DNA of 64,000 bases, taken from the NCBI GenBank assembly GCA_017455145.1, contig JAFTBP010000007.1, positions 19,505-83,504 on the forward strand, read 5' to 3'. Every line of letters begins with the position of its first letter. Within the stretch, counting starts at the first letter, position 1. The position numbers were made by a program, and so were the translations under genes. The DNA comes from Candidatus Saccharimonadota bacterium (GTDB taxonomy: Bacteria > Patescibacteriota > Saccharimonadia > Saccharimonadales > Saccharimonadaceae). This document shows, piece by piece, positions 5,513 through 55,494 of the stretch. Below the pieces are notes generated by a model. That model did no database searches. It worked only from the letters and a program-made list of their open reading frames with translations, and had not been told where the DNA came from.

Positions 5513-5986
5513 TTAAAACTTATGATGTAACGAGTGGCAGATAGCTGCAGCCAAGGCATCTGCCGCATCGTCTGGTTTAGGCACTTGAGTCAGGTTTAGG
5601 TGCCTTTTTACGACCTCCTGCATCTGCTTTTTGTCTGCGTGTCCATAGCCCGTCATCGTGCTTTTAATCTCGTTTGGGCTATATTCAAAAATCGGAAGTT
5701 TATTTTGTTTGGCGACTAGCATACATACTCCGCGCGCCTCCGCTACAGAAATACCCGTACTAATATTTTGCATAAAAAACAATTTTTCTATACTAACGAC
5801 TTCGGGCTTGTTCAAATCAATAATCTCGTTTAGGGAATCATAAATATCTTCTAGACGCTCAGGCAGTGGCGTATGCGGTGGAGTAGCAATTACGCCCGCA
5901 TCTACCAGCGAAGCCTTTCCGCGTTTAAAATCAATCACGCCGAATCCGCAAATGCCCGTACCAGGGTCTATCCCTAGAATTCTCAT
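5513..5986 (-). CDS. ruvC: Holliday junction resolvase RuvC
   Basis: ILGIDPG...E...DDAADALA motifs. Confidence 0.96.
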   Translation of the reverse strand: MRILGIDPGTGICGFGVIDFKRGKASLVDAGVIATPPHTPLPERLEDIYDSLNEIIDLNKPEVVSIEKLFFMQNISTGISVAEARGVCMLVAKQNKLPIFEYSPNEIKSTMTGYGHADKKQMQEVVKRHLNLTQVPKPDDAADALAAAICHSLHHKF

Positions 5987-6018
5987 ATCTAAATTATAGC
6001 ACGTGATATAATAACCTT

Positions 6019-6597
6019 ATGATTGCACACGTCAAAGGAATAATTGCCGAAAAATTTAATACGTCCGTCATCGTAGACGTAAATGGCGTTGGCTATGAAG
6101 TTGCCCTGTCCGCACTAGATTATGAAGACGCCAAACTAGACGAAGAGAAGAAATATTACACTTACCACAAAATATCAGAAAATGCCGAAGAACTCTATGG
6201 CTTCTCTACACTTTCCGCCAAGAAAATTTTTGAACTTTTAATTTCCGTAAACGGCGTTGGACCAAAAGCCGGCATGGCTATTTTGTCGCTCGCCCCACCA
6301 GAAGAAGTCAGAAATGCGATTGCTAATGCTGACACCGGGTTTATCTCTAAGGCATCCGGCGTCGGCAAAAAATCCGCCGAACGCGTAGTAGTTGACTTGC
6401 GTGACAAAGTCGGATTACCGTCCAAATATGGCGCCACAGAAGTTGTTGGCGCAATCAAAACTGACGAGTCTGACGAGGCTCTAGATGCTCTTATGGCGCT
6501 TGGTTTCCCACTAAAAGAAGCCACGGATGCCTTATCAAAAGTAGATGCGTCCCTCTCTGTAGAAGAACGCATCAAACAGGCTCTCAAAAACCGTTAG
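6019..6597 (+). CDS. ruvA: Holliday junction branch migration protein RuvA
   Basis: VNGVGYEV, LISVNGVGPK HhH motifs, ALMALGF C-terminus. Confidence 0.96.
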   Translation: MIAHVKGIIAEKFNTSVIVDVNGVGYEVALSALDYEDAKLDEEKKYYTYHKISENAEELYGFSTLSAKKIFELLISVNGVGPKAGMAILSLAPPEEVRNAIANADTGFISKASGVGKKSAERVVVDLRDKVGLPSKYGATEVVGAIKTDESDEALDALMALGFPLKEATDALSKVDASLSVEERIKQALKNR

Positions 6598-6599
6598 TA

Positions 6600-7952
6600 T
6601 TAGTGATTCATATATTTAATTAGAGTATTACGTAAATCTTTGACCGGCAAAACAAACGGGTCTTTTATTGTGGCGGGAGCAATAGCGTGCGTAAATCCTA
6701 GTTTCTTTGCCTCAGAAATACGCTGGTCTGGACGGAAAGCAGAGCGAATTTCTCCGCCTAGCCCCACCTCGCCAAATACTACGTATTTTTCTGATAATTT
6801 TCGCTTTGCCACAGCAGAAGCGATAGCGAGACACACTGCTAAATCTGCCGCAGAATCCTGAACTTTTATCCCGCCGACCACATTAATAAAAATGTCTAGG
6901 TCAGATAATTTTAATTTGGTCCGACGCTCTAATACCGCAATAAGTAGATTTAGACGATTAATATCAAACCCCGAGCACGCGCGTTTCGGATACCCAAAAG
7001 TAGATGTCGTAGCGAGCGCCTGAATCTCCACGAGGAGCGGACGGTTTCCTTCAAGCGTAGAAAGAATAATAGAGCCGTCGGTATTTTGGCGCTCGGCTAG
7101 GAGCGCGGCAGAAGGGTCTTTTACTTCGGCTAGACCGAGCTGACCCATTTCAAAAATTGCCACTTCCATCGTAGAGCCAAACCGATTTTTAATGGCACGT
7201 ACAGTTTTAAATCCACCATAGCGATCGCCTTCAAAATTAATTACTACATCCACTAAATGCTCTAGGACTTTTGGACCAGCCAGCGAACCGTCCTTTGTAA
7301 CGTGACCAACTATTACAACCGCCGTATCAGACGCTTTGGCCGCGCGAATAATGAGGTTTCCGCAATTTGTTACTTGGGAAACGTTGCCCGGCGCAGAAGT
7401 GAGTTCTGCCAGCGACAAAGTCTGAATAGAATCCACTACCACAAATTTAAACTCGCCAGATTCTATGGTTTTAGCAATATCATTTCCGGAAGTACTGCTC
7501 GCAAAATTTAACATTTCCGACCTAGCACCTAAACGCTCTGCGCGAAGCTTAACTTGCCCGGCAGACTCCTCGCCAGAAACATAGAGCACGGGCTGCTCCT
7601 CAGAGATTTTAGAACAAATCTGCATCAGAAGTGTGGATTTGCCAATGCCCGGCTGACCAGTAAGAAGGGAAACAGAACCCTGTAAAAATCCTCCGCCAAG
7701 CACCGCGTCTAGGTCTTTGAATCCAGTTAAAAGTCGCGCCGAAGAATCCGACGGAATGATGTCGTTTATAGAAACACTTTCTAGGATTTTGCCAGAAAGG
7801 CGACCTTGCGATACGGCGTTTTTACCAGTTTCTTCCACGCCGACCTGTTCTACTAATGTGTTCCATTCGCCACAATTTTCGCACTTGCCGTTCCACTTGG
7901 AAAAACTGGCTCCACAACTTTGACAGACAAAATTCGCTTTATGCTTTACCAT
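6600..7952 (-). CDS. radA: DNA repair protein RadA/Sms
   Basis: C4 zinc finger, GQPGIGKST, KNRFG motif, Lon-like C-terminus. Confidence 0.96.
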   Translation of the reverse strand: MVKHKANFVCQSCGASFSKWNGKCENCGEWNTLVEQVGVEETGKNAVSQGRLSGKILESVSINDIIPSDSSARLLTGFKDLDAVLGGGFLQGSVSLLTGQPGIGKSTLLMQICSKISEEQPVLYVSGEESAGQVKLRAERLGARSEMLNFASSTSGNDIAKTIESGEFKFVVVDSIQTLSLAELTSAPGNVSQVTNCGNLIIRAAKASDTAVVIVGHVTKDGSLAGPKVLEHLVDVVINFEGDRYGGFKTVRAIKNRFGSTMEVAIFEMGQLGLAEVKDPSAALLAERQNTDGSIILSTLEGNRPLLVEIQALATTSTFGYPKRACSGFDINRLNLLIAVLERRTKLKLSDLDIFINVVGGIKVQDSAADLAVCLAIASAVAKRKLSEKYVVFGEVGLGGEIRSAFRPDQRISEAKKLGFTHAIAPATIKDPFVLPVKDLRNTLIKYMNH

Positions 7953-7969
7953 AGTCGCCTCCGCATAGA

Positions 7970-8512
7970 TTAATAATTCACAGCGCGGATTTCAAAGAAA
8001 CTCTGTGGATGTGAGCAAACTGGGCATACTTCCGGTGCTTTTTCGCCAGTAAATAGATAGCCACAATTTCTACATTTCCAAACCGTCACTTTTGGCGACT
8101 TAAACACTACATCATCATCAATGTTTTTAAGTAGCTTCTTATAGCGCTCTTCGTGGTCTTTTTCTATTGCGCCTACGCCCTCAAATTTCTGGGCGATTTC
8201 TTCAAACCCTTCCTCGCGTGCTACTTTGGCAAACTCTTTGTACATTTTGTTAGTTTCATAATCTTCACCCGCGATGGCGTCTTCTAGGTTTGCTGTCGTG
8301 TCTGGCATCTCATTATCGTGTAAGATTTTGAACCAAATTTTAGCGTGCTCTTTTTCGTTGCCAGCGGTTTCTTCAAAAATCGCACCCATTTGTTCGTAAC
8401 CGTCTTTTTTGGCTTTGCTCGCATAGTACATATATTTTGTATAGGCCTGCGCCTCGCCAGCAAACGCCGTTTGCAAATTTTTGTAAGTTTTAGAATCTTT
8501 AAACTCAGCCAT
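7970..8512 (-). CDS. rbr: Rubrerythrin
   Basis: AFAGE, EKEH, EKDH diiron motifs plus CRNC...CPVC rubredoxin domain. Confidence 0.93.
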   Translation of the reverse strand: MAEFKDSKTYKNLQTAFAGEAQAYTKYMYYASKAKKDGYEQMGAIFEETAGNEKEHAKIWFKILHDNEMPDTTANLEDAIAGEDYETNKMYKEFAKVAREEGFEEIAQKFEGVGAIEKDHEERYKKLLKNIDDDVVFKSPKVTVWKCRNCGYLFTGEKAPEVCPVCSHPQSFFEIRAVNY

Positions 8513-8619
8513 ATTCCTCCTTTTGTTCTCTAATTATAGCATAGCCACCCCCCACCCCAGTAATTTCAGCCAAAAATTGTGGAAAACTTGCATTTTTGAA
8601 AAAAGCATAAAAATTATGC

Positions 8620-8652
8620 TTGACAAAAGCGTCTGGGGGGGGGGGGTATTAT
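8620..8652 (+). promoter_or_regulatory. Sigma70 promoter with a G12 homopolymer in the -35/-10 spacer
   Basis: TTGACA (8620-8625), G tract 8635-8646, TATTAT (8647-8652); spacer 21 nt. Confidence 0.7.
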
Positions 8653-8704
8653 GAGAATACAAAAGGTCATAAATATAAAAACTGACATAAAGAAAGGAAC
8701 AAAC

Positions 8705-9574
8705 ATGTCTAAAACTACAAAAATTATTGCAGCCCTCGGTGTTGTCGCCGGCCTCGGCGTCGCCGCCTTGCCAGCATTTACGTATGCAGAATCTACCACT
8801 GGCGATGTAGAAGTTGATGTTGAAGTCCTTCCAGCTATCGCTATGACGATTGTTGGTAATAACGATGACGGCAGCGTAGTATCCTTTGGCGATGCGCGCG
8901 TAAGCTATGCCGCTGTTACTCCGGATGGTGACGAAGATCCTTCAGAGGAAGGCTGGTACGTAGAAAATGAAGGCGCATATACTATAACTACAGATACGTC
9001 CGTTCAGCCTGGAACGACCTACTATGAACAAATTACTAGAAATAGCTACAACTCAGTAGCTGCATTTAGCCCAGCTGATGCCGCATCTAGCAAGATTGAT
9101 ACCTATACTACCGGTGTTACTTCCATCAATGCTCTTTCATCTTCTGCATGGCAAATGCTTCCAAATCAGGCCAAGGAAGGCGGCGATTTTAAATCTACGA
9201 TTACCGTCTATACGAACGCAGCGTCTGGTTATAGCTTAACTCTTAAGGATGCTGACACTAACAACAGCCTCGTGAATGGAGCATACTCCATCCGCGCTGT
9301 TGGCTCATACGAAGTAGAAACCGGCGTCAATAATACTATCACTGCTGGTCAAGATTCTTGGGGCTACAGAGTTTCAGCACAGCATGGTGCAGACCTCCCA
9401 TCTCCTGCCGCCTGGGCTGCAGTTCCTACTGCATCTGGTGCCGCAATCTCCTCTCTTGGGACTAAGACCACAGGAGGCGACCAGACCGTAGTTGAATACG
9501 GTGTTTCCACTGCAGCAGATCAGGCAACTGGTATCTATAGAGATACGATTATCTATACCGCAACAACTAATTAA
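8705..9574 (+). CDS. Secreted pilin/WxL-like surface protein
   Basis: AAGGAA SD, signal peptide ending TYA, beta-rich body ending ...VEYGV...GIYRDTIIYTATTN; start reassigned to 8705. Confidence 0.6.
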   Translation: MSKTTKIIAALGVVAGLGVAALPAFTYAESTTGDVEVDVEVLPAIAMTIVGNNDDGSVVSFGDARVSYAAVTPDGDEDPSEEGWYVENEGAYTITTDTSVQPGTTYYEQITRNSYNSVAAFSPADAASSKIDTYTTGVTSINALSSSAWQMLPNQAKEGGDFKSTITVYTNAASGYSLTLKDADTNNSLVNGAYSIRAVGSYEVETGVNNTITAGQDSWGYRVSAQHGADLPSPAAWAAVPTASGAAISSLGTKTTGGDQTVVEYGVSTAADQATGIYRDTIIYTATTN

Positions 9575-9673
9575 TCTAGCTCACGCGCATGAGCGGGTGC
9601 GAATTTAAAAACTTTCTATAATATTTGTTATATGACCAAAACTAACCGATATTATATTTAGGACACGCATCCG

Positions 9674-9702
9674 GAAAATCCCCCTCCTGTAGGGGGATTT
9701 TC
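9674..9702 (+). terminator. Rho-independent terminator
   Basis: GAAAATCCCCCT-CCTGT-AGGGGGATTTTC hairpin. Confidence 0.75.
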
Positions 9703-9795
9703 AATGTATACTAGTTTAGCTTGCTATTTTAATAAAAAAGAAGCTCCAGGCTTAGCTCTAGGTGAGCCCTCTGGAACTCCAGTATCTTGATTATA

Positions 9796-10197
9796 TCAAA
9801 TTAACTTATCAATTTCAATAGCCTTACCGGCTCTGGTAACAAAAATTAAACGCTTAATACCACTTTTTCTCTTTAGCCTAGCGATTAGGTAGTTCTTAAT
9901 ACTTGAGTCCCTCAATTTTTTAACTCTGGATGAATCTATGACAATATTTTTAGACTGTCTCCTAAGCGCTTTTTGTAAATTATTTTCTACACACTTAATA
10001 GTGCTTCCTTCTGGGGATTTAAACTCAAAAAGAGTATCGTTTAGGTATGCATCTGCGGAACAAAAAGAATTATGCGCCGGTACGAATCTAACCGTATATC
10101 CAATCTCTTTTAACGCAAGGGCGCTATGCATTTCAAAAGGAAGCACGTTCCGTACTCCCGGCTCAATTACTATTTTGCCAGTATGCTTTATCCTCAT
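9796..10197 (-). CDS. Stand-alone PD-(D/E)xK nuclease resembling CdiA C-terminal toxin domains
   Basis: SADAYLNDTLFEFKSP...QSKNIVIDS pattern; ATG 10197 follows TACAAT. Confidence 0.55.
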   Translation of the reverse strand: MRIKHTGKIVIEPGVRNVLPFEMHSALALKEIGYTVRFVPAHNSFCSADAYLNDTLFEFKSPEGSTIKCVENNLQKALRRQSKNIVIDSSRVKKLRDSSIKNYLIARLKRKSGIKRLIFVTRAGKAIEIDKLI

Positions 10198-10276
10198 ATT
10201 CAAATTGTATCGTGTGCATATAAAATGGCAAGCATAGGCACATTTCAAGATATATCATGCTATAATAAGAGAAGCT

Positions 10277-11308
10277 ATGGGAATAGAACGCATCGTCAGT
10301 ACTACCGTTTCAGAAAACGACCAAGAAGAAGAGGTAATTGAAAAATCTCTTCGCCCGCTTTCTTTTGACGAATACATCGGCCAAGACCGTATGAAATCTA
10401 ACCTTAAAATCGCCATTGACGCCGTCAAAAAACGTAAGGCCGAAGGCGACACCGACGCTCCTGGCGCTACATTAGACCATATATTATTATATGGTCCTCC
10501 AGGGTTGGGTAAGACCACTATGGCTAACGTCATCGCTCACGAAATGAACGCCAATCTCAAGATTACTTCCGGCCCTGCCATTGAGCGCGCTGGCGACCTC
10601 GCTAGTATTCTTACTAATCTCCAGGATGGCGACGTTCTCTTTATCGACGAAATCCACCGTCTCCGTCGCACTGTAGAAGAAGTATTATATTCTGCCATGG
10701 AAGATTTTAAGCTGGACATTACTATCGGCAAGGGTCCAGCCGCCCGCTCCGTCCGGCTAGACCTCCCAGGTTTCACCGTGATTGGCGCTACTACTCGCAC
10801 CGGCTCCCTCGCTGGCCCGCTTCGCGACCGTTTTGGCATGCTTCACCGCCTAGAATATTACAAAGAGGGCGAGATTGAACAGATTATTGCTCGTACCGCC
10901 AACATCCTTAATACGCGGATAGAGGACGACGCAGTTAAGCTCCTTGCTACTCGCTCCCGACGTACCCCGCGTATTGCTAACCGCCTCGTCCGTCGCGTGC
11001 GCGATTATGCTGACGTTAATGGTGACGGCATTATAGATACCAGCATCGCCAAATCCGCCCTAGATTTAATGGAAATTGACGAACTCGGCCTAGACCCAGC
11101 AGACAGAAATATGCTAAAACTAATGGAAGAAAACTACGGCGACCGCCCCGTCGGGCTTAATACTATCGCCGCGCTCACTGGCGACGAAGCCACTACTATT
11201 GAAGACTATAACGAACCATATCTCTTACAAATCGGCTTTATTGAACGTACTCCGCGTGGCCGTCGCATTACCGCCAAGGCTAGAGAGCACTTAAAGCATA
11301 GCCACTAG
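10277..11308 (+). CDS. ruvB: Holliday junction DNA helicase RuvB
   Basis: [32 protein letters not shown]. Confidence 0.97.
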
Positions 11309-19740: not shown

Positions 19741-19980
19741 GGCGACGCAACGGACAGAGTAGCCGTAGGTCTTATAACCCGAACCATCTGGGTAGGCATA
19801 ATTGCCGTTATAGTACAGGAGGCGGGCGTTGGTAGCGGAGTCAGAGCCTGCCGACCAGAAGTAGCCGTTCGTACCCTGACCGTAAACCTTACCGTCAGCC
19901 CTGCCCACGTTGCCTGAATACGGCAGTGAGAATGGGAATTGATGGAGTGTATCATTGACGCGGGTGGAGCCTTGGCCGCC
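19741..19980 (-). pseudogene. Orphan (silent) C-terminal variable cassette C of the Fib_succ_major-like adhesin
   Basis: 80 codons GGQGSTRVNDTLHQFPFSLP...GYSVRCVA, colinear without indels with the 3' end of 52208-54256; anchor 59/61 nt identical; no obvious promoter, SD or N-terminus. Confidence 0.88.
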
Positions 19981-27388: not shown

Positions 27389-28798
27389 ATGAATCCGGAC
27401 GAAAACAATAATAACCAGCCAGGGGATAATCCTGTAGCGCCTGAAGTGACTATTGCTCCAGAAACCCCAGCCACTCCGGATTCTGCGCCACTGGAACAGG
27501 CGATTGCTCCAGAAGTGCCAGCAGACACTCCTATCGCCCCAGAAATGCCAGAAGCTTTAGAAGCTACGGAGGCGCCTGCCGAAGAACAATCTGCTTCTCT
27601 GGATCAAGTTGCTGCCGACCTTGCTGCCGTCGCTACAGAGGCTAACCCGGATTCTGCCCCTGTTGCTGAGCCATCCCCAGAAGCACCAATCGCCCCAGAA
27701 ACTACTCCTGAACCAGCGCCATTTGCTGAGCCATCCCCAGAAGCTCCAGCCACACCAGAAGCTCCTGTCGTTCCAGAAGCTCCTGCAGAGCCAGAGATGC
27801 CAGTCGCACCAGAGCTAACTCCTGCGCCTGAGTCTGCCCCAGCAGAACCTACACTAGAAACACAAGCAGAGACTCCAGCAGAAATGCCAACCGAGGCACC
27901 ATTAGAAACTCCTCTCTCAACAGAGGCTCCTATCGCTCCAGAAGAGACCCCAGCTCCAGAAATCACCCCAGAGCCACTTCCAGAAGATACTCCAGCTCCA
28001 GAAGAAACCTCAGCTCCGGCTTCCGCTAATTTTGTTGACGACGCTCCAGCAAGCCCTACTCCGGCCCCATCTTCGGATGACGAAGAGGAAGAGCCTCTCG
28101 TTCCAGCCGAGCCGGTTCCAGGCTCCATTGGTAGTGCTCTAGCTTATTCTGATACTGCCCCAGACCACGCTATTCCTGTTGGCAAACCCCTAAAAGTTAA
28201 AAAACAAAGAGCACCTCTTTCTAAAGAAAATATTAAACTCTTAGTAATGATTATCGGTGGTGTTACACTTGTTGCAATCGTAGCGGTTGTTATCTTCTTC
28301 ATTATAAACAGCGCATCTAATCGTAGTACATCCAGTACTACTCCAGCCAACAATAATAGTAATAACAACTCTTCAGTTGTCTCCAGCCTTACCTGTACTC
28401 GTAATGGTGGCGCAGACATATTTGGCACCTACGGCAATGTTGCCTCAGGTTCCGAGCAAGTTATCGCAATGTATACCAATGACAATCTCACCAGTTTTGG
28501 CACTACTTTGACTTTGACGTATGATTCAGAAGATTCTGCCAATGCTGGCCAAATTGTTGCTCGCGATATCTACAACCAGAAAGTTGCTTCTACCGGCACT
28601 ACTACAGACCCATTCACTAGTGCCTACGACGTCACTGGCACTACTTTGACCGTCACGCATCAAGCTGACGGCGAAGACATTACCGACAAAAACGCTAAAA
28701 TCCTAGGCTTTTATGTCATCAAAGGCGAGCCGGTTACTGACATTGACACTCTTCTTGACAACTACGAGTCCGAAGATTATACCTGCGTAGAAAAATAG
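27389..28798 (+). CDS. Pro/Glu/Ala-rich low-complexity membrane protein
   Basis: About 250 aa of APE/PEAP repeats, one TM helix, Cys-flanked C-terminal domain. Confidence 0.8.
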   Translation: MNPDENNNNQPGDNPVAPEVTIAPETPATPDSAPLEQAIAPEVPADTPIAPEMPEALEATEAPAEEQSASLDQVAADLAAVATEANPDSAPVAEPSPEAPIAPETTPEPAPFAEPSPEAPATPEAPVVPEAPAEPEMPVAPELTPAPESAPAEPTLETQAETPAEMPTEAPLETPLSTEAPIAPEETPAPEITPEPLPEDTPAPEETSAPASANFVDDAPASPTPAPSSDDEEEEPLVPAEPVPGSIGSALAYSDTAPDHAIPVGKPLKVKKQRAPLSKENIKLLVMIIGGVTLVAIVAVVIFFIINSASNRSTSSTTPANNNSNNNSSVVSSLTCTRNGGADIFGTYGNVASGSEQVIAMYTNDNLTSFGTTLTLTYDSEDSANAGQIVARDIYNQKVASTGTTTDPFTSAYDVTGTTLTVTHQADGEDITDKNAKILGFYVIKGEPVTDIDTLLDNYESEDYTCVEK

Positions 28799-51436: not shown

Positions 51437-52006
51437 ATGGATCAGAAATCTCACACTAGGAATCATCATTTGTCTCAACATTTTTTGCGCAGTCCACGCC
51501 TGGCGCTAATGTTGATCGGCCATAGCAATATCAAGAAGCGCGATTTAGTAATTGACATCGGTGCCGGCTCTGGTGTTATCACTTATGCTTTATCTAAGCG
51601 TTGCCGTAAGGTAATTGCCATAGAGCCGGATCATGGCACCGCAACAAAGCTCCGCAATAATTTAGCCCAGCGTGGCGTAGAAAACGTAGAAGTTATAGAG
51701 CAGGATTTCCTAGAATATGATTTGCCATCCGAGCCATACAAGGTGTTTTCTAACCCGCCCTTCCATTTGTCGTCCAAGATTGTGCATAAACTGCTAGAAG
51801 CAGAAAATCAGCCAGAAAGCTTTTATCTAATTTTACAAAAACAATTCGCCCTGAAATTGCTCAACACGGACCGCCACTACACCTCACAGCTCGGCCAGGC
51901 TTTAATAAAAGAGTACCAGACTAAGATTCGCTATCCGCTCCGCCCTACGGATTTTACTCCCCCTCCCGCCATCCCCACTGTGCTATTTGAAGCAAAAAAG
52001 ATTTAA
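51437..52006 (+). CDS. Short Erm/KsgA-family rRNA adenine methyltransferase
   Basis: SQHFL, DIGAGSG, FSNPPF, QKQFA, DFTPPP; lacks the C-terminal helical domain. Confidence 0.8.
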   Translation: MDQKSHTRNHHLSQHFLRSPRLALMLIGHSNIKKRDLVIDIGAGSGVITYALSKRCRKVIAIEPDHGTATKLRNNLAQRGVENVEVIEQDFLEYDLPSEPYKVFSNPPFHLSSKIVHKLLEAENQPESFYLILQKQFALKLLNTDRHYTSQLGQALIKEYQTKIRYPLRPTDFTPPPAIPTVLFEAKKI

Positions 52007-52242
52007 CGGACAGAAAATCCGTCGGTCTTATAGTAGTTATTCTCTGGGCGGGTATAATTACCGTTGATGAGCAGGTAGCGGGCGTTAGTACCGGAGCTAG
52101 CCCCCTGAGACCACCAGTAGCCGAGCGTACCCTGACCGACGGTAGCGCCAGATCCTCTGTCCACGTAGCCTGGATACGGCAGTGAGAATGGGAATTGATG
52201 GAGTATATCATTGACGCGGGTGGAGCCTTGGTCGCCGGAAGA
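52003..52242 (-). pseudogene. Tandem out-of-frame variable cassette B of the adhesin
   Basis: SSGDQGSTRVNDILHQFPFSLP...DGFSVR*; the 67-bp anchor 52176-52242 is identical to 52426-52492; repeat period 250 bp. Confidence 0.9.
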
Positions 52243-54256
52243 GTTGTGCGACGCAGCGGACAGAAAAGCCGTAGGTCTTATAGTCGTTATTCTCTGGGCT
52301 GGTATAATTACCGCTGATGAGCAGGGCCCGGGCGTTGGTATTAGAGTTAGCACCCTGCGACCACCAGTCGCCGCCCGCACCCTGAACGACGGTAGCGCCA
52401 GAAGCACTGTTCACGTTGCCTGACAACGGCAGTGAGAATGGGAATTGATGGAGTATATCATTGACGCGGGTGGAGCCTTGGTCGCCGGAAGAAGTTATTA
52501 AAGAGTAGGTGTCCTTAATTAGATACATCCAGGAGCCATTACCAGTGTAGCGGGGAAGCCACCAGCCTTTTGGACAAATGTCTTGGCTCGCTGTAGTTGC
52601 GCCCTGGCTCTTGCTTACGCTACCAGCCGTCGCGGCATACCAGTTGTAGTATACGCCGATTTTTTGGTTCTCGCCAGTGATATTACCACCAGCGCCAGTC
52701 TCGCGTACGTCATTGGTGGAACGAGATAGCCAGCGGTCAGAGTAGGCCCCAGCCGTGCTTCCTTCTTTCCATTGGGCAGTATCCTCTGTGGTCTGGGTTT
52801 TACCGTTAGAGGTTCCGCCAGTAGACGTTGAGTCTGGACCATTGATGGATGCTGGAGTAATTGAACTCGTGATATTAGTATCATCTGGAGTAAGTGTGCG
52901 ATTCTCAATGAACGATAGGTTGAGGTTATTCACCATCCAACAGTTACCGTCTGCGAGTTTGCGCACTTCATAAGTATTACCGTCGCGACTATCAGTTAAG
53001 GTCCTGTAGGCTACGTAGTTCGTGTCGCCATAGTGAGCTGGACCGCCTTTGCCGTCGCCTCCATCGCCGTTGGCATTCTTACTAGCAGTATGCGATGTGC
53101 CGGCTGGGTTTTGACCCTGAATAACGTCAGGACTTGGGGTAGTCATATAGCGCGAGTCATTACAAATTGAGTTTGTCATCTCTTGCATTGTCGTAATGTT
53201 AAAGAATGTTGCAATATAGTTAAACTGCTTATGGAAAGTCTGAGAATATTCTGGGATGTTGACATAGACCTGATATTGACCGATAGAGTTAGCAGGAGCA
53301 GTACAGTTATACTCTAGATATGCCTCGCCCGTAGATGTACACGTCATCTCGCTAGACGCAAGTTCCGCTAGTGTCTTTGTGCCAGCGCTAAGATCTTCAT
53401 AGTCACTCTGCGATAGCATATAGATATCTACGTTAGTAGCAGACGTCGTATAAAGCGGAGTGGTGACTTTGATAGTCTGACCAGAACCAGTGAGGTTTGG
53501 TGTCTCGCTAGGAGTAAGATTAATCTCGGACGTTGTCCCACCATTTGCCACTGCCGTATATAATACGGAGTTCGTATAAGTTCCAGCCGCTACGGAGTGG
53601 TCTGCTTGTACACCATACCAGACGTGGAATACGTTAGGACTACCATAGTTAGAAGTACTCGTCTGAGCCACTAACTGAGCCGGTTGTTCGTTAGTCGGTA
53701 GGGAAGCGAACATAATACTGTTATCTGGCTCTGCATTTGTAAGTTGTGCGTAGCTAGTATTAAATCCGTTTGGAGTGATAACCGTTGGATCATTTTTAGG
53801 GATAGCGTAACCCCACTTACCATTGGCTAGTGGGCTAGTACTTGTGAAAGAACCTGTGGAGGAGATTTTATTGTTTGAGTCAAGAATTAGGGAATTCTCG
53901 TCGTCATTCATACCCATATAGACTTTGTATCCGCCAGGGGCATTTGTCTGTGTAGAGACCGTAGCCACCCCAGTAGACATTGTACCCATCGGATACGCAA
54001 TCAAGTTAAGGTTTACCTGCGGGGTAACTGTCAGAGAGACAGAATAATTACCCTGAGTAATATTTGCGTTAATCTGGGTTTCTACCGCATTAGACATATT
54101 AATCGGTGCGTAGATAGAAGACGCCATAAACGTTGCCATAAACGCAAGACAGAATACTGGCACAGCACCGTAAAATACCTTTAAGTAAAGCCTGGAAGTC
54201 TTAAGCCCTAGCCTTCGCTTCCTGCTTAATTTTCTCCCCCCGAGATGTTGTGTCAT
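52208..54256 (-). CDS. Surface adhesin-like protein: signal/TM, pilin/WxL-like domain, C-terminal Fib_succ_major (FISUMP, CLec-like) domain
   Basis: AAAGGAGGT SD; LTDSRDGNTYEVRKLADGNCWMVNNL, YYNWYAATAG, DICPKGWWLP, WWS, GFSVRCVA motifs. Confidence 0.88.
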   Translation of the reverse strand: MTQHLGGRKLSRKRRLGLKTSRLYLKVFYGAVPVFCLAFMATFMASSIYAPINMSNAVETQINANITQGNYSVSLTVTPQVNLNLIAYPMGTMSTGVATVSTQTNAPGGYKVYMGMNDDENSLILDSNNKISSTGSFTSTSPLANGKWGYAIPKNDPTVITPNGFNTSYAQLTNAEPDNSIMFASLPTNEQPAQLVAQTSTSNYGSPNVFHVWYGVQADHSVAAGTYTNSVLYTAVANGGTTSEINLTPSETPNLTGSGQTIKVTTPLYTTSATNVDIYMLSQSDYEDLSAGTKTLAELASSEMTCTSTGEAYLEYNCTAPANSIGQYQVYVNIPEYSQTFHKQFNYIATFFNITTMQEMTNSICNDSRYMTTPSPDVIQGQNPAGTSHTASKNANGDGGDGKGGPAHYGDTNYVAYRTLTDSRDGNTYEVRKLADGNCWMVNNLNLSFIENRTLTPDDTNITSSITPASINGPDSTSTGGTSNGKTQTTEDTAQWKEGSTAGAYSDRWLSRSTNDVRETGAGGNITGENQKIGVYYNWYAATAGSVSKSQGATTASQDICPKGWWLPRYTGNGSWMYLIKDTYSLITSSGDQGSTRVNDILHQFPFSLPLSGNVNSASGATVVQGAGGDWWSQGANSNTNARALLISGNYTSPENNDYKTYGFSVRCVAQLFRRPRLHPRQ

Positions 54257-54414
54257 TTATACCTCCTTTGTATATCCCTATATGCCGTCAACCGACGGTT
54301 TCACACGCTCATTATAGCACGAACATTTTGCAAAGCGCAAGCACTTTTTTACAATTTTTACACAAAATCTTTATGGTTTTACACGCCCCAGATGCGATAT
54401 GGTATAATTATCCT

Positions 54415-55494
54415 ATGCAAACCGAAAAACGCCTAGAAACCTTAAAGACTGATTTTTTTGATACCTGGGAAAAACTAAAAATTGACGACGAGATTGCCAA
54501 ACTAGAAGAATTAGAACGCGAGGTTGCTAATCCCGAAATCTGGAAAAACCCAGACGACGCTCGCGAAAAAAACGAAGTCCTCGCTAGACTCAAAGAAAAA
54601 ATAGAGACTTGGCAAGTCCTAAAAATGCAAATCACCGACATTTCCGAACTCTTAGCCCTCGGCGAAGACGACCTAACAGCAGAAATTGACGACCAAATTT
54701 CCGCAATGGAAAAGACTTTCTCTGAACTAAAACAGGCTCTAAAATTTACCGGACCATATGACCACGGCGACGCTATTATCCGTATTACAGCCGGCGCCGG
54801 CGGGACAGAGGCAATGGACTGGGCAGGAATGTTAGAACGAATGTATCTTAGATTTTTTGAGAAAAAGGGCTTTAAGCCAACCCTCATAGAAAAAACCGAA
54901 GGCGAAGAAGCCGGCATAAAAACCGCCGTTTATGAAATTTCTGGCACTGATGTTTATGGGATGCTTAAAAGTGAGAATGGCACTCACCGCCTCGTCCGGC
55001 TCAGTCCGTTTAACGCGGACAATCTTCGTCAAACTTCTTTCTCGCTAGTAGAAATTTTACCCGTAATAAAAGGCGATACCGACGTAAAAATAGACGAAAA
55101 AGATCTTCGCATTGATGTTTACCATTCCGGCGGACACGGCGGTCAAAGCGTCAACACGACTAATTCTGCCGTCCGCATTACTCATATCCCAACAAACACC
55201 GTTGTCGCCATTCAAAACGAACGTAGCCAACTCCAAAACAAAGAAAAGGCTATGGAAATTTTACGTGGCAAACTCGCCCAGATGCAAATAGAGCAACAAG
55301 CCGAGAGCATTAACAAACTCCGCGCCGGCGAATCCGCATCTTGGGGACAACAAATCAGAAACTACGTTCTCCAACCATACAAACTAGTCAAAGACACTCG
55401 CACAAAATACGAAGAAACCGACGCCGACGCCGTATTAGACGGCAAAATTGATGGGTTCATTAACGCTTATCTTGACGCGAATCTTTCCGCCTAG
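54415..55494 (+). CDS. prfB: Peptide chain release factor 2 (no programmed frameshift)
   Basis: GAGGTEAMDW, RLSPF, GGQ motifs; continuous frame from ATG 54415. Confidence 0.96.
   Translation: MQTEKRLETLKTDFFDTWEKLKIDDEIAKLEELEREVANPEIWKNPDDAREKNEVLARLKEKIETWQVLKMQITDISELLALGEDDLTAEIDDQISAMEKTFSELKQALKFTGPYDHGDAIIRITAGAGGTEAMDWAGMLERMYLRFFEKKGFKPTLIEKTEGEEAGIKTAVYEISGTDVYGMLKSENGTHRLVRLSPFNADNLRQTSFSLVEILPVIKGDTDVKIDEKDLRIDVYHSGGHGGQSVNTTNSAVRITHIPTNTVVAIQNERSQLQNKEKAMEILRGKLAQMQIEQQAESINKLRAGESASWGQQIRNYVLQPYKLVKDTRTKYEETDADAVLDGKIDGFINAYLDANLSA

What the first reader, a model, noticed from the sequence alone, without database searches (positions are those of the whole stretch)
52003..54256. 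Adhesin with an expressed variable tip and silent alternative tip cassettes: candidate cassette-exchange diversification system
Seen: the last ~80 codons of the 682-aa surface protein (copy A, 52243-52492) recur as copy B (52003-52242, exactly 250 bp downstream, out of frame) and copy C (19741-19980). All three are colinear with no indels. A and B share an identical 67-bp 5' anchor (SSGDQGSTRVNDILHQFPFSLP). Over the next 57 codons they differ at 29 nt and 17 aa (hand count), while the scaffold residues (G.V, QG, WS, NAR, GNY, P, YKT, G.SVR) stay fixed. Known: Fib_succ_major/CLec-type C-termini are ligand-binding modules and common DGR targets, and silent-cassette exchange drives pilE/pilS and vlsE variation. 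Inference: this epibiont-type bacterium keeps a dispersed library of ready-made binding tips, each with a homology arm, and swaps them into one expression locus, perhaps to change host specificity. The swap could use general recombination; ruvABC, radA and rarA are in this window.
Basis: partly seen in the sequence, partly recalled or inferred. Interest (0 to 1): 0.92.

Follow-up and report, generated by a model that had tools for sequence, protein, structure and literature searches.

The report
Retroelement-fed library of silent binding tips
A tiny gut bacterium rewrites the tip of a predicted surface-binding protein with a mutagenic reverse-transcriptase element and also keeps many gene-less, reading-frame-intact copies of that tip around its chromosome, which it likely swaps back into the gene as a stored repertoire.

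Summary
Its template (TR), reverse transcriptase, Avd-like gene and hairpin lie on contig C10. The window's A-to-B join is very likely a misassembly. The true protein is 671 aa, and tip A exists twice: once in the gene and once silent beside B.

This 62%-complete Saccharibacteria genome holds 14 assembled gene-less tips from at least three template families. Some congeners hold dozens, and 181 of 183 anchor-defined copies are in frame and stop-free despite deep divergence.

Five proteins identical over residues 1-607 carry five different tips. Three fit the resident TR exactly, one equals a silent cassette, and tip A cannot be made from that TR. Two relatives of one congener share 98% of the N-terminus but carry unrelated tips, one 85% identical to a silent cassette of that congener.

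Best reading: the DGR writes tips, silent copies store them, and recombination likely recalls them. Direction and mechanism are inferred. I found no description in ten literature searches; earlier scan notes saw the same class.

The parts
52244..54256 (-). DGR target gene, 671 codons: N-terminal hydrophobic helix, beta-rich stalk domains, C-terminal Fib_succ_major (FISUMP) C-type-lectin-fold domain; native end ...SVRCVAQ-stop is on contig C10
   Evidence: TIGR02145 59.3 bits (cut-off 41.65); PF09603 37.8 bits (cut-off 33.9); model; fold neighbours; 671-aa form in five cluster members
52248..52440 (-). Tip A = variable repeat; in this assembly two identical copies (expressed A and silent A') are very likely collapsed here
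   Evidence: 19/53 adenine and 12/140 other mismatches to TR C10:85160-85352; depth about 1.5-2.2x; P0079 and P0081
52426..52492 (-). 67-nt constant 5' anchor shared with B; its upstream part comes from the target gene, not from the TR
   Evidence: TR shares only 1 nt upstream of its start; 13 of 14 cassettes share 38-76 nt
52243..52250 (-). A-to-B tandem junction; the same junction recurs at C3:115855 and C11:14477; as assembled it adds a spurious tail LFRRPRLHPRQ to the protein
52003..52242 (-). Silent cassette B, open frame through the variable part, 3' end cut after SVR; likely the last member of the C11 cassette array
19741..19980 (-). Silent cassette C between pgk and rnj; belongs to the DGKVY family that matches the TR of a sister species better than the resident TR
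   Evidence: non-adenine mismatches 10/132 to sister TR vs 30/140 (ungapped) to resident TR; no promoter-like site on its strand
54412..55494 (+). prfB, upstream neighbour used as synteny marker
51437..52006 (+). RrnaAD-family methyltransferase gene, neighbour of B used as synteny marker
5513..11308 (.). ruvC, ruvA, radA-like, ruvB: housekeeping recombination genes, not shown to be part of the system

Best explanation
Copies A, B and C are variable repeats of a DGR whose target is a predicted membrane-anchored lectin-fold protein, and the gene-less copies form a frame-preserved library that likely exchanges sequence with the single expression site by homology-based recombination. Step 1, writing (shown by sequence signature): the RT next to the target copies the TR with errors at adenines and replaces the tip. 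Step 2, storing (copies shown; route inferred): tips with short arms from the target gene, not from the TR, sit at intergenic sites. They come from the resident TR, from an unfound older template family and from a sister-species template family, so the store holds tips that the current TR cannot make. Step 3, recall (inferred): a stored tip overwrites the expressed tip by gene conversion through the constant 5' and 3' arms, probably RecA/RuvAB-dependent. DNA uptake may supply foreign tips and new insertions (inferred). The purpose is likely to change what the cell surface binds or is bound by: host receptor, phage or antibody (inferred).
For: DGR: RT C10:85399-86592 (PF00078 over cut-off, YVDD motif); asparagine-codon-rich TR; 12-bp-stem hairpin after the stop; Avd-like gene (Atlas lead 0.86 to bAvd); adenine bias 256/689 vs 188/1716; P0001, P0082, P0083 need 0 non-adenine changes. 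Library: 14 gene-less copies in 395 kb. Anchor-defined cassettes in frame and stop-free: G014 60/60, G016 16/16, G024 20/21, G010 85/86 in 558 kb, with lengths of 150-222 nt in steps of 3 and median inner amino-acid identity 17-53%; a neutral null gives P(no stop) of 0.15-0.50 per cassette. 16 DGR-linked VRs in congeners and in this genome's second DGR differ from their TR at 0-3 non-adenine sites, but this one differs at 13/142 and the G003 C16 one at 8/149, the latter sharing a derived motif with an orphan. In G010 the expressed tip differs by 1 nt from a short-armed silent cassette while other same-length cassettes differ at over 110 nt; no DGR lies beside that gene and its only RT match carries a stop. 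P0104 and P0113 share 627 of 637 N-terminal residues but have unrelated tips, and the P0104 tip is 85% identical to a G010 silent cassette, next best 39%. P0084 carries the tip of silent cassette C10:84356 on the full N-terminus. recA and comEC are present in 4 of 4 library-rich congeners.
Against: No read, long contig or time series shows a swap; all runs were short-word contigs that cannot span the arms. An identical expressed/silent pair fits copying out as well as copying in. Full-length proteins from short-read assemblies can be chimeras across the arms (a real risk for P0084, smaller for the short-armed G010 family). TRs themselves differ between close lineages (34/185 nt between resident and sister TR), so tip A could have arrived by transfer of the gene end from a strain with another TR, or from a second TR in the unassembled 38%. 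Library-rich G014 has a VR that matches its TR (2/144). The contrast rests on two discordant systems, plus L155 (7/132 and an insertion). recA and comEC were not found in G000 itself (incomplete). Frame preservation could partly reflect copying from functional alleles rather than use.
Confidence: 0.65

Rival explanations
1. One-way by-products: DGR activity or illegitimate recombination scatters copies of the target's 3' end, which are never recalled; open frames are inherited from functional alleles.
For: Fresh TR products are among the cassettes (C10:84356 1/140, C10:37543 3/140; G014 2-3/132). Arms have ragged ends. Sites are strain-variable: C5:~21130 is empty here and filled in L063 and L066. 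Among listed rows, the four RT-less congeners with matches show only long reading frames (35 rows not shown).
Against: 181/183 intact frames at near-saturated synonymous divergence (pS 0.71-0.77 in three genomes) with conserved non-coding 3' arms; unrelated tips on 98%-identical N-termini; tip A not derivable from its TR.
Confidence: 0.2
2. Cassettes are themselves remote DGR targets diversified in place, and whole-gene-end transfer between strains by natural transformation explains odd expressed tips; intragenomic recall is minor.
For: C10:84356 keeps 50 nt of the downstream arm including most of the hairpin; the same site carries different tip families in different strains (C12:2088 vs L065); C12:2088 matches the sister TR at 2/132 and has the sister anchor; natural competence is shown for other Saccharibacteria (PMC10633639, passages).
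Against: Most cassettes lack the hairpin (3' arms 0-26 nt in 12 of 13 scored here; mostly 20-30 nt in G014), which the prototype DGR needs for efficient homing (PMC3240598, abstract). It does not explain near-identical expressed/silent pairs within one genome (G000, G010).
Confidence: 0.1
3. Shufflon-like or rearrangement-based switching: crossovers between arms physically join the N-terminus to other tips by inversion or translocation, and the window's join is one such state.
For: The same 682-aa join occurs in a second assembly (P0078); cassettes lie at two synteny breakpoints relative to G022; head-to-head pairs are common in G010 and G014.
Against: Pairs are head-to-head, not the inward-reading layout of invertible segments (recalled); only one tyrosine recombinase in G000, G003, G010 and G016 and none in the DGR locus; gene order around the target is kept in sister species; two-copy depth of A fits a simple assembly collapse.
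Confidence: 0.05

Closest known systems
Diversity-generating retroelements with C-type-lectin-fold targets (Bordetella phage BPP-1 mtd/avd/TR/brt; Treponema TvpA; Patescibacteria clade)
   Same: RT, TR, adenine-specific VR changes, hairpin after the target, C-terminal lectin-fold target (PMC3240598 abstract; PMC8144416 passages).
   Different: Known remote targets are described as genes, at most seven non-adjacent per DGR in one survey (PMC5758913 passages; also PMC7517822, PMC10907252 passages). Here there are tens of gene-less tips, many not derivable from the resident TR. The TR is antisense to the RT gene in both DGRs of this genome.
Anaplasma phagocytophilum msp2/p44 functional pseudogenes
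   Same: One expression site and about 100 transcriptionally silent donors used by gene conversion (PMC11946796, PMC2789410; search listing only); conserved flanks around a hypervariable core (recalled).
   Different: Unrelated protein; no retroelement known to write those donors (recalled); conversion is shown there and only inferred here.
Borrelia vlsE/vls, Neisseria pilE/pilS, Mycoplasma synoviae vlhA
   Same: Silent promoterless partial copies with homology arms and one expression locus (vls: PMC11499132 abstract; pilS and vlhA recalled).
   Different: vls cassettes are contiguous, about 90% identical, and transfer is unidirectional and segmental; here cassettes are dispersed, down to 17% median identity, and flow appears to go both ways.

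Membership tests
DGR | Reverse transcriptase gene with intact frame and catalytic motif near the target | tested here: met
   397-aa ORF, PF00078 49.8 bits, YVDD; no RT phylogeny was built
DGR | TR/VR pair differing mainly at TR adenines | tested here: met
   C10:84356 17/53 vs 1/140; pooled 256/689 vs 188/1716; three expressed tips need 0 non-adenine changes. Tip A itself has 12 non-adenine differences.
DGR | Hairpin/cruciform just downstream of the VR | tested here: met
   12-bp stem, 10-nt loop, 19 nt after the repeat
DGR | Avd accessory protein | tested here: inconclusive
   268-aa gene at the expected place; no Pfam hit; Atlas lead to bAvd/MutS_I cluster at 0.86
DGR | VR at the C-terminus of a C-type-lectin-fold domain | tested here: met
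   TIGR02145/PF09603 over cut-off; VIA-align rows are mostly lectin/FGE folds: TvpA 2y3c Z 6.3, rmsd 4.5, 162 aligned; TaqVP Z 5.1; Mtd Z 4.8 (middling Z; Foldseek gave nothing at E<=0.001)
DGR | Ongoing retrohoming in the population | not testable with these tools
   Only contigs were available; strain-level tips differ
Silent-cassette gene conversion systems (msp2/p44, vlsE, pilE) | One full-length expression gene and many gene-less partial copies | tested here: met
   genome incomplete
Silent-cassette gene conversion systems (msp2/p44, vlsE, pilE) | Conserved homology arms around a variable core with preserved frame | tested here: met
Silent-cassette gene conversion systems (msp2/p44, vlsE, pilE) | Donor sequence transferred into the expression site, donor unchanged | tested here: inconclusive
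   Near-identical expressed/silent pairs and unrelated tips on near-identical N-termini; direction unproven, chimeric assembly possible
Silent-cassette gene conversion systems (msp2/p44, vlsE, pilE) | Dependence on RecA/RecF or RuvAB | not testable with these tools
   Genes present; needs genetics
Silent-cassette gene conversion systems (msp2/p44, vlsE, pilE) | Donors not transcribed | not testable with these tools
   No RNA run held the stretch; only copy C was scanned for promoters
Shufflon (R64-type) | Clustered invertible segments with an adjacent tyrosine recombinase | tested here: not met
   Cassettes dispersed or tandem; the single recombinase match in G000 is at C3:17639, far from the DGR

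The most novel reading that the evidence does not exclude
A write-store-recall system: a DGR writes new binding tips, working tips (own, older and foreign) are archived as tens to about a hundred silent cassettes, and recombination recalls them into one surface gene. In some lineages (G010) the library appears to run on after the retroelement has broken, which would show how an Anaplasma-like antigenic-variation system can be born from a DGR.
Probability: 0.5. Interest if true: 0.92.

Novelty: new variant of a known kind. Interest (0 to 1): 0.8.

Why it matters
It would join two diversification strategies that I found described only separately: retroelement hypermutation and silent-cassette gene conversion. 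A store of pre-tested tips removes two limits of DGRs, the dependence on one template and the many non-functional products. The origin of silent donor libraries is an open question, and this genus offers a graded series to test it: full-length paralogues only, DGR only, DGR plus library, library with a broken RT. Spending several percent of a sub-megabase genome on such cassettes points to the target as a key surface interaction protein of uncultured gut Saccharibacteria. In practice, these repeats break and misjoin short-read assemblies exactly at the target gene, and standard DGR finders that look only near the RT would miss them.

Tried and rejected
Two strain alleles collapsed at 52 kb: rejected, B has its own unique flank at single-copy depth and the library is genome-wide. 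TR inside the window: none; the AAC-rich copy is on C10. A second resident TR of the QGA family: not seen in the assembly or among the differences listed, but the tables were cut and the genome is 62% complete, so this is not an absence. Anchor in viral contigs: 0 matches. RNA evidence: no RNA holder listed. Full-length fold search was dominated by stalk domains and uninformative; Foldseek on the tip domain gave nothing at E<=0.001. Synteny from hisS/prfB/tsf coordinates alone was ambiguous and was replaced by gene-by-gene comparison. In one search the G004 pair was not scored properly (its TR fell below my filter of 11 AAY codons), TRs without a VR in the fetched DNA (G006, G010, G016, one of G001) were left out, G024's cassettes do not match its assembled TRs, and one non-adjacent G020 match (3/136) was not counted. 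The G024 count uses a loose 3' motif (34 hits, 21 with a 5' anchor). Earlier-finding look-ups by place and by sequence returned nothing. Literature searches found no description of gene-less DGR tip libraries; the library lacks most subscription papers, and no supplements were read, so a table in a DGR survey could list such copies.
Full report
Observation. The three copies, the 67-nt anchor and the counts of 29 nt and 17 aa are exact. The genome (G000, 395 kb, 12 contigs, 61.8% complete) is a Saccharibacteria genome: named homologues come from Ca. Saccharibacteria, and loci encoding homologues carry titles such as Ca. Nanosyncoccus sp. from ruminant gut. BLASTN finds 17 copies of the tip on four contigs: one template, tip A, a partial second A at the end of C10, and 14 gene-less cassettes.

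The copies are DGR variable repeats. The copy at C10:85160-85352 has asparagine codons at nearly all variable positions. It lies beside a 397-aa reverse transcriptase, a 268-aa gene with a weak Avd-like signal, a 12-bp hairpin and the 3' end of the target. The TR is antisense to the RT. A second, complete DGR of the same layout sits at C10:10.3-14.4 kb, with 20/63 adenine and 0/130 other mismatches. Against the first TR, 13 near-complete copies differ at 256 of 689 adenines and 188 of 1716 other positions (copies are related, so the Fisher p of 1e-46 overstates). Two cassettes are nearly pure products (1/140 and 3/140 non-adenine). The target has a Fib_succ_major domain. Its model (pLDDT 87.6) aligns with lectin/FGE folds including the DGR targets TvpA, TaqVP and Mtd at middling Z. 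An N-terminal hydrophobic helix (residues 23-45) suggests a membrane anchor; surface exposure and ligand are inferred.

The window is very likely misjoined at A. C10 ends with 102 nt identical to A and continues into the native stop and the DGR. The A unitig has depth 81.7 vs about 46 (X1), 146.7 vs about 97 (X2), 117 vs 67 (X3) and 52.4 vs 23 (X4) (one study, possibly the source; contig depth is a rough measure). Other assemblies give N-terminus+A+native end (P0079) and non-gene flank+A+B (P0081), although one more gives the 682-aa form (P0078). A sister species has prfB, target, avd-like, RT, TR, one orphan cassette, tsf, rpsB on one contig (L155). In G022 and G008 the methyltransferase gene next to B abuts the genes that precede the C11 cassette array. 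So the protein is 671 aa, and A has a silent twin heading into B.

The cassettes are copies of the gene end, not of the TR. Thirteen of 14 share 38-76 nt with the gene upstream of the TR start (the other has the sister-species anchor), and four keep 13-50 nt beyond the repeat. All are open through the variable part; B and C11:14477 have clipped 3' ends and one is cut by a contig end. They fall into at least three template families: resident; a QGA family (A, B and five others) with no TR found; and a DGKVY family (copy C, C12:2088, C11:14477) closer to the sister TR (2/132 for C12:2088, 10/132 for C). Occupancy varies by strain: C5:~21130 is empty here and filled in two other metagenome contigs, and the C12 site holds another family in L065.

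The library is a lineage feature. The tip matches in 23 of 24 congeners and 0 of 16 genomes of other families, and a tip profile matches 23 of 150 family genomes. The RT matches 19 of 24 congeners. Match counts reach 83 (G014), 53 (G010), 48 (G016) and 37 (G003), and the listed rows for these are mostly short frames (160 rows not shown). Each species' cassettes carry its own target's arms. Defined by DNA anchors alone, 60/60 (G014, 344 kb fetched), 85/86 (G010, 558 kb), 16/16 (G016, 98 kb) and 20/21 (G024) are in frame and stop-free; these counts include the expression-site copy in G014 and G010. Lengths run from 150 to 222 nt in steps of three, median inner identity is 17-53%, and synonymous sites are near saturation in three genomes. 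A neutral null leaves 15-50% of cassettes stop-free. This is strong evidence that the frames are kept by selection, either on the cassettes or on the alleles they were copied from.

Evidence for exchange with the expression site. Five proteins are identical over residues 1-607 and differ at 19-22 tip residues from A. P0001, P0082 and P0083 need no non-adenine change from the resident TR; P0084 needs one and equals silent cassette C10:84356; A needs five. Eleven of A's 12 non-adenine differences occur in silent cassettes. Sixteen DGR-linked VRs match their TR at all but 0-3 non-adenine sites, including library-rich G014; the exceptions are this system (13/142) and G003 C16 (8/149), and L155 (7/132 plus an insertion; L157 1/142). 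In G010 a 717-aa gene with no DGR beside it carries a tip 1 nt from a short-armed silent cassette; the only RT match there has a stop (Pfam search found none). Two relatives share 627 of 637 N-terminal residues but have unrelated tips, one 85% identical to a G010 cassette. No single TR can do that. Limits: direction is not shown, short-read chimeras are possible, and TRs also differ between close lineages.

Mechanism. Shown: DGR signature, gene-derived arms, preserved frames, variable expressed tips, near-identical expressed/silent pairs. Inferred: archiving of expressed tips, recall by gene conversion, RecA/RuvAB involvement (genes present; recA not found in the incomplete G000), uptake of foreign tips (comEC in 4 of 4 congeners; competence shown for other Saccharibacteria, PMC10633639), and a binding role. 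How a cassette is inserted at a new site is unexplained; I noted many G010, G014 and G016 cassettes right after hairpin or T-rich sequences (by eye) and 27 head-to-head pairs among 128 cassettes.

Comparison and novelty. It is a member of the DGR class. It works like Anaplasma msp2/p44 or Borrelia vls, but the defining transfer is not proven. Papers seen: passages of PMC8144416, PMC5758913, PMC12386605, PMC10907252, PMC7517822 and PMC10633639; abstract and outline of PMC11499132 and PMC3240598; search listing only for PMC11946796 and PMC2789410. pilS, vlhA and shufflon details are recalled. In these passages remote DGR targets are described as genes; none describes gene-less tip libraries, and ten searches found none. 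No supplements were read. Five earlier notes of this scan report the same class in other genomes; they are not independent support. What this window adds is the expression-site evidence and the misassembly. Verdict: new variant of a known kind, interest 0.8.

Noticed in passing
G000 C10:10341-14448 (L002, L135): A second complete DGR (577-aa target, avd-like gene, RT, antisense TR) with a clean adenine-only VR and no clear orphan library of its own.
   Followed up: partly
G000 C10:83759-84148 and C10:9015-9476; L157:10278-10862: A small gene resembling PemK/MazF toxins (label recalled, not searched) lies beside both DGRs here and inside the DGR of a relative.
   Followed up: no
G010 L109:11551-11739 and L061:2812-3000; G024 L033:90-275 and 709-894: Duplicate TR-like copies, one far from the RT in G010 and two in tandem in G024; neither matches the genome's cassette family.
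   Followed up: partly
G000 C1:25718-25945, C3:2460-2632, C12:2693-2806; L063:1476-1694: A ~220-nt repeat, part of which flanks a cassette in inverted orientation in L063; possible small mobile element that helps cassettes move.
   Followed up: partly
G000 C10:76034-76276 and C11:13335-14720: Cassettes sit at two points where gene order differs from congener G022; cassettes may seed rearrangements.
   Followed up: partly
G024 L031:8-643: Three tips fused in one 245-aa open frame at a contig start.
   Followed up: no
G000 C1:1039-2928 and C3:135-2351: Full-length paralogues of the target without a matching TR; RT-less congeners have 10-24 such domains.
   Followed up: partly
G014 C39 and C40 (L129, L132): Two further RTs of about 560 aa with strong RVT_1 scores, probably group II intron type.
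   Followed up: no
window 27389-28798: 469-aa Pro/Glu/Ala-rich repetitive protein with one hydrophobic segment and no Pfam hit.
   Followed up: no
G125: A genome of another genus in the family with 138 candidate tip matches, several in short frames; possible library outside the genus.
   Followed up: no
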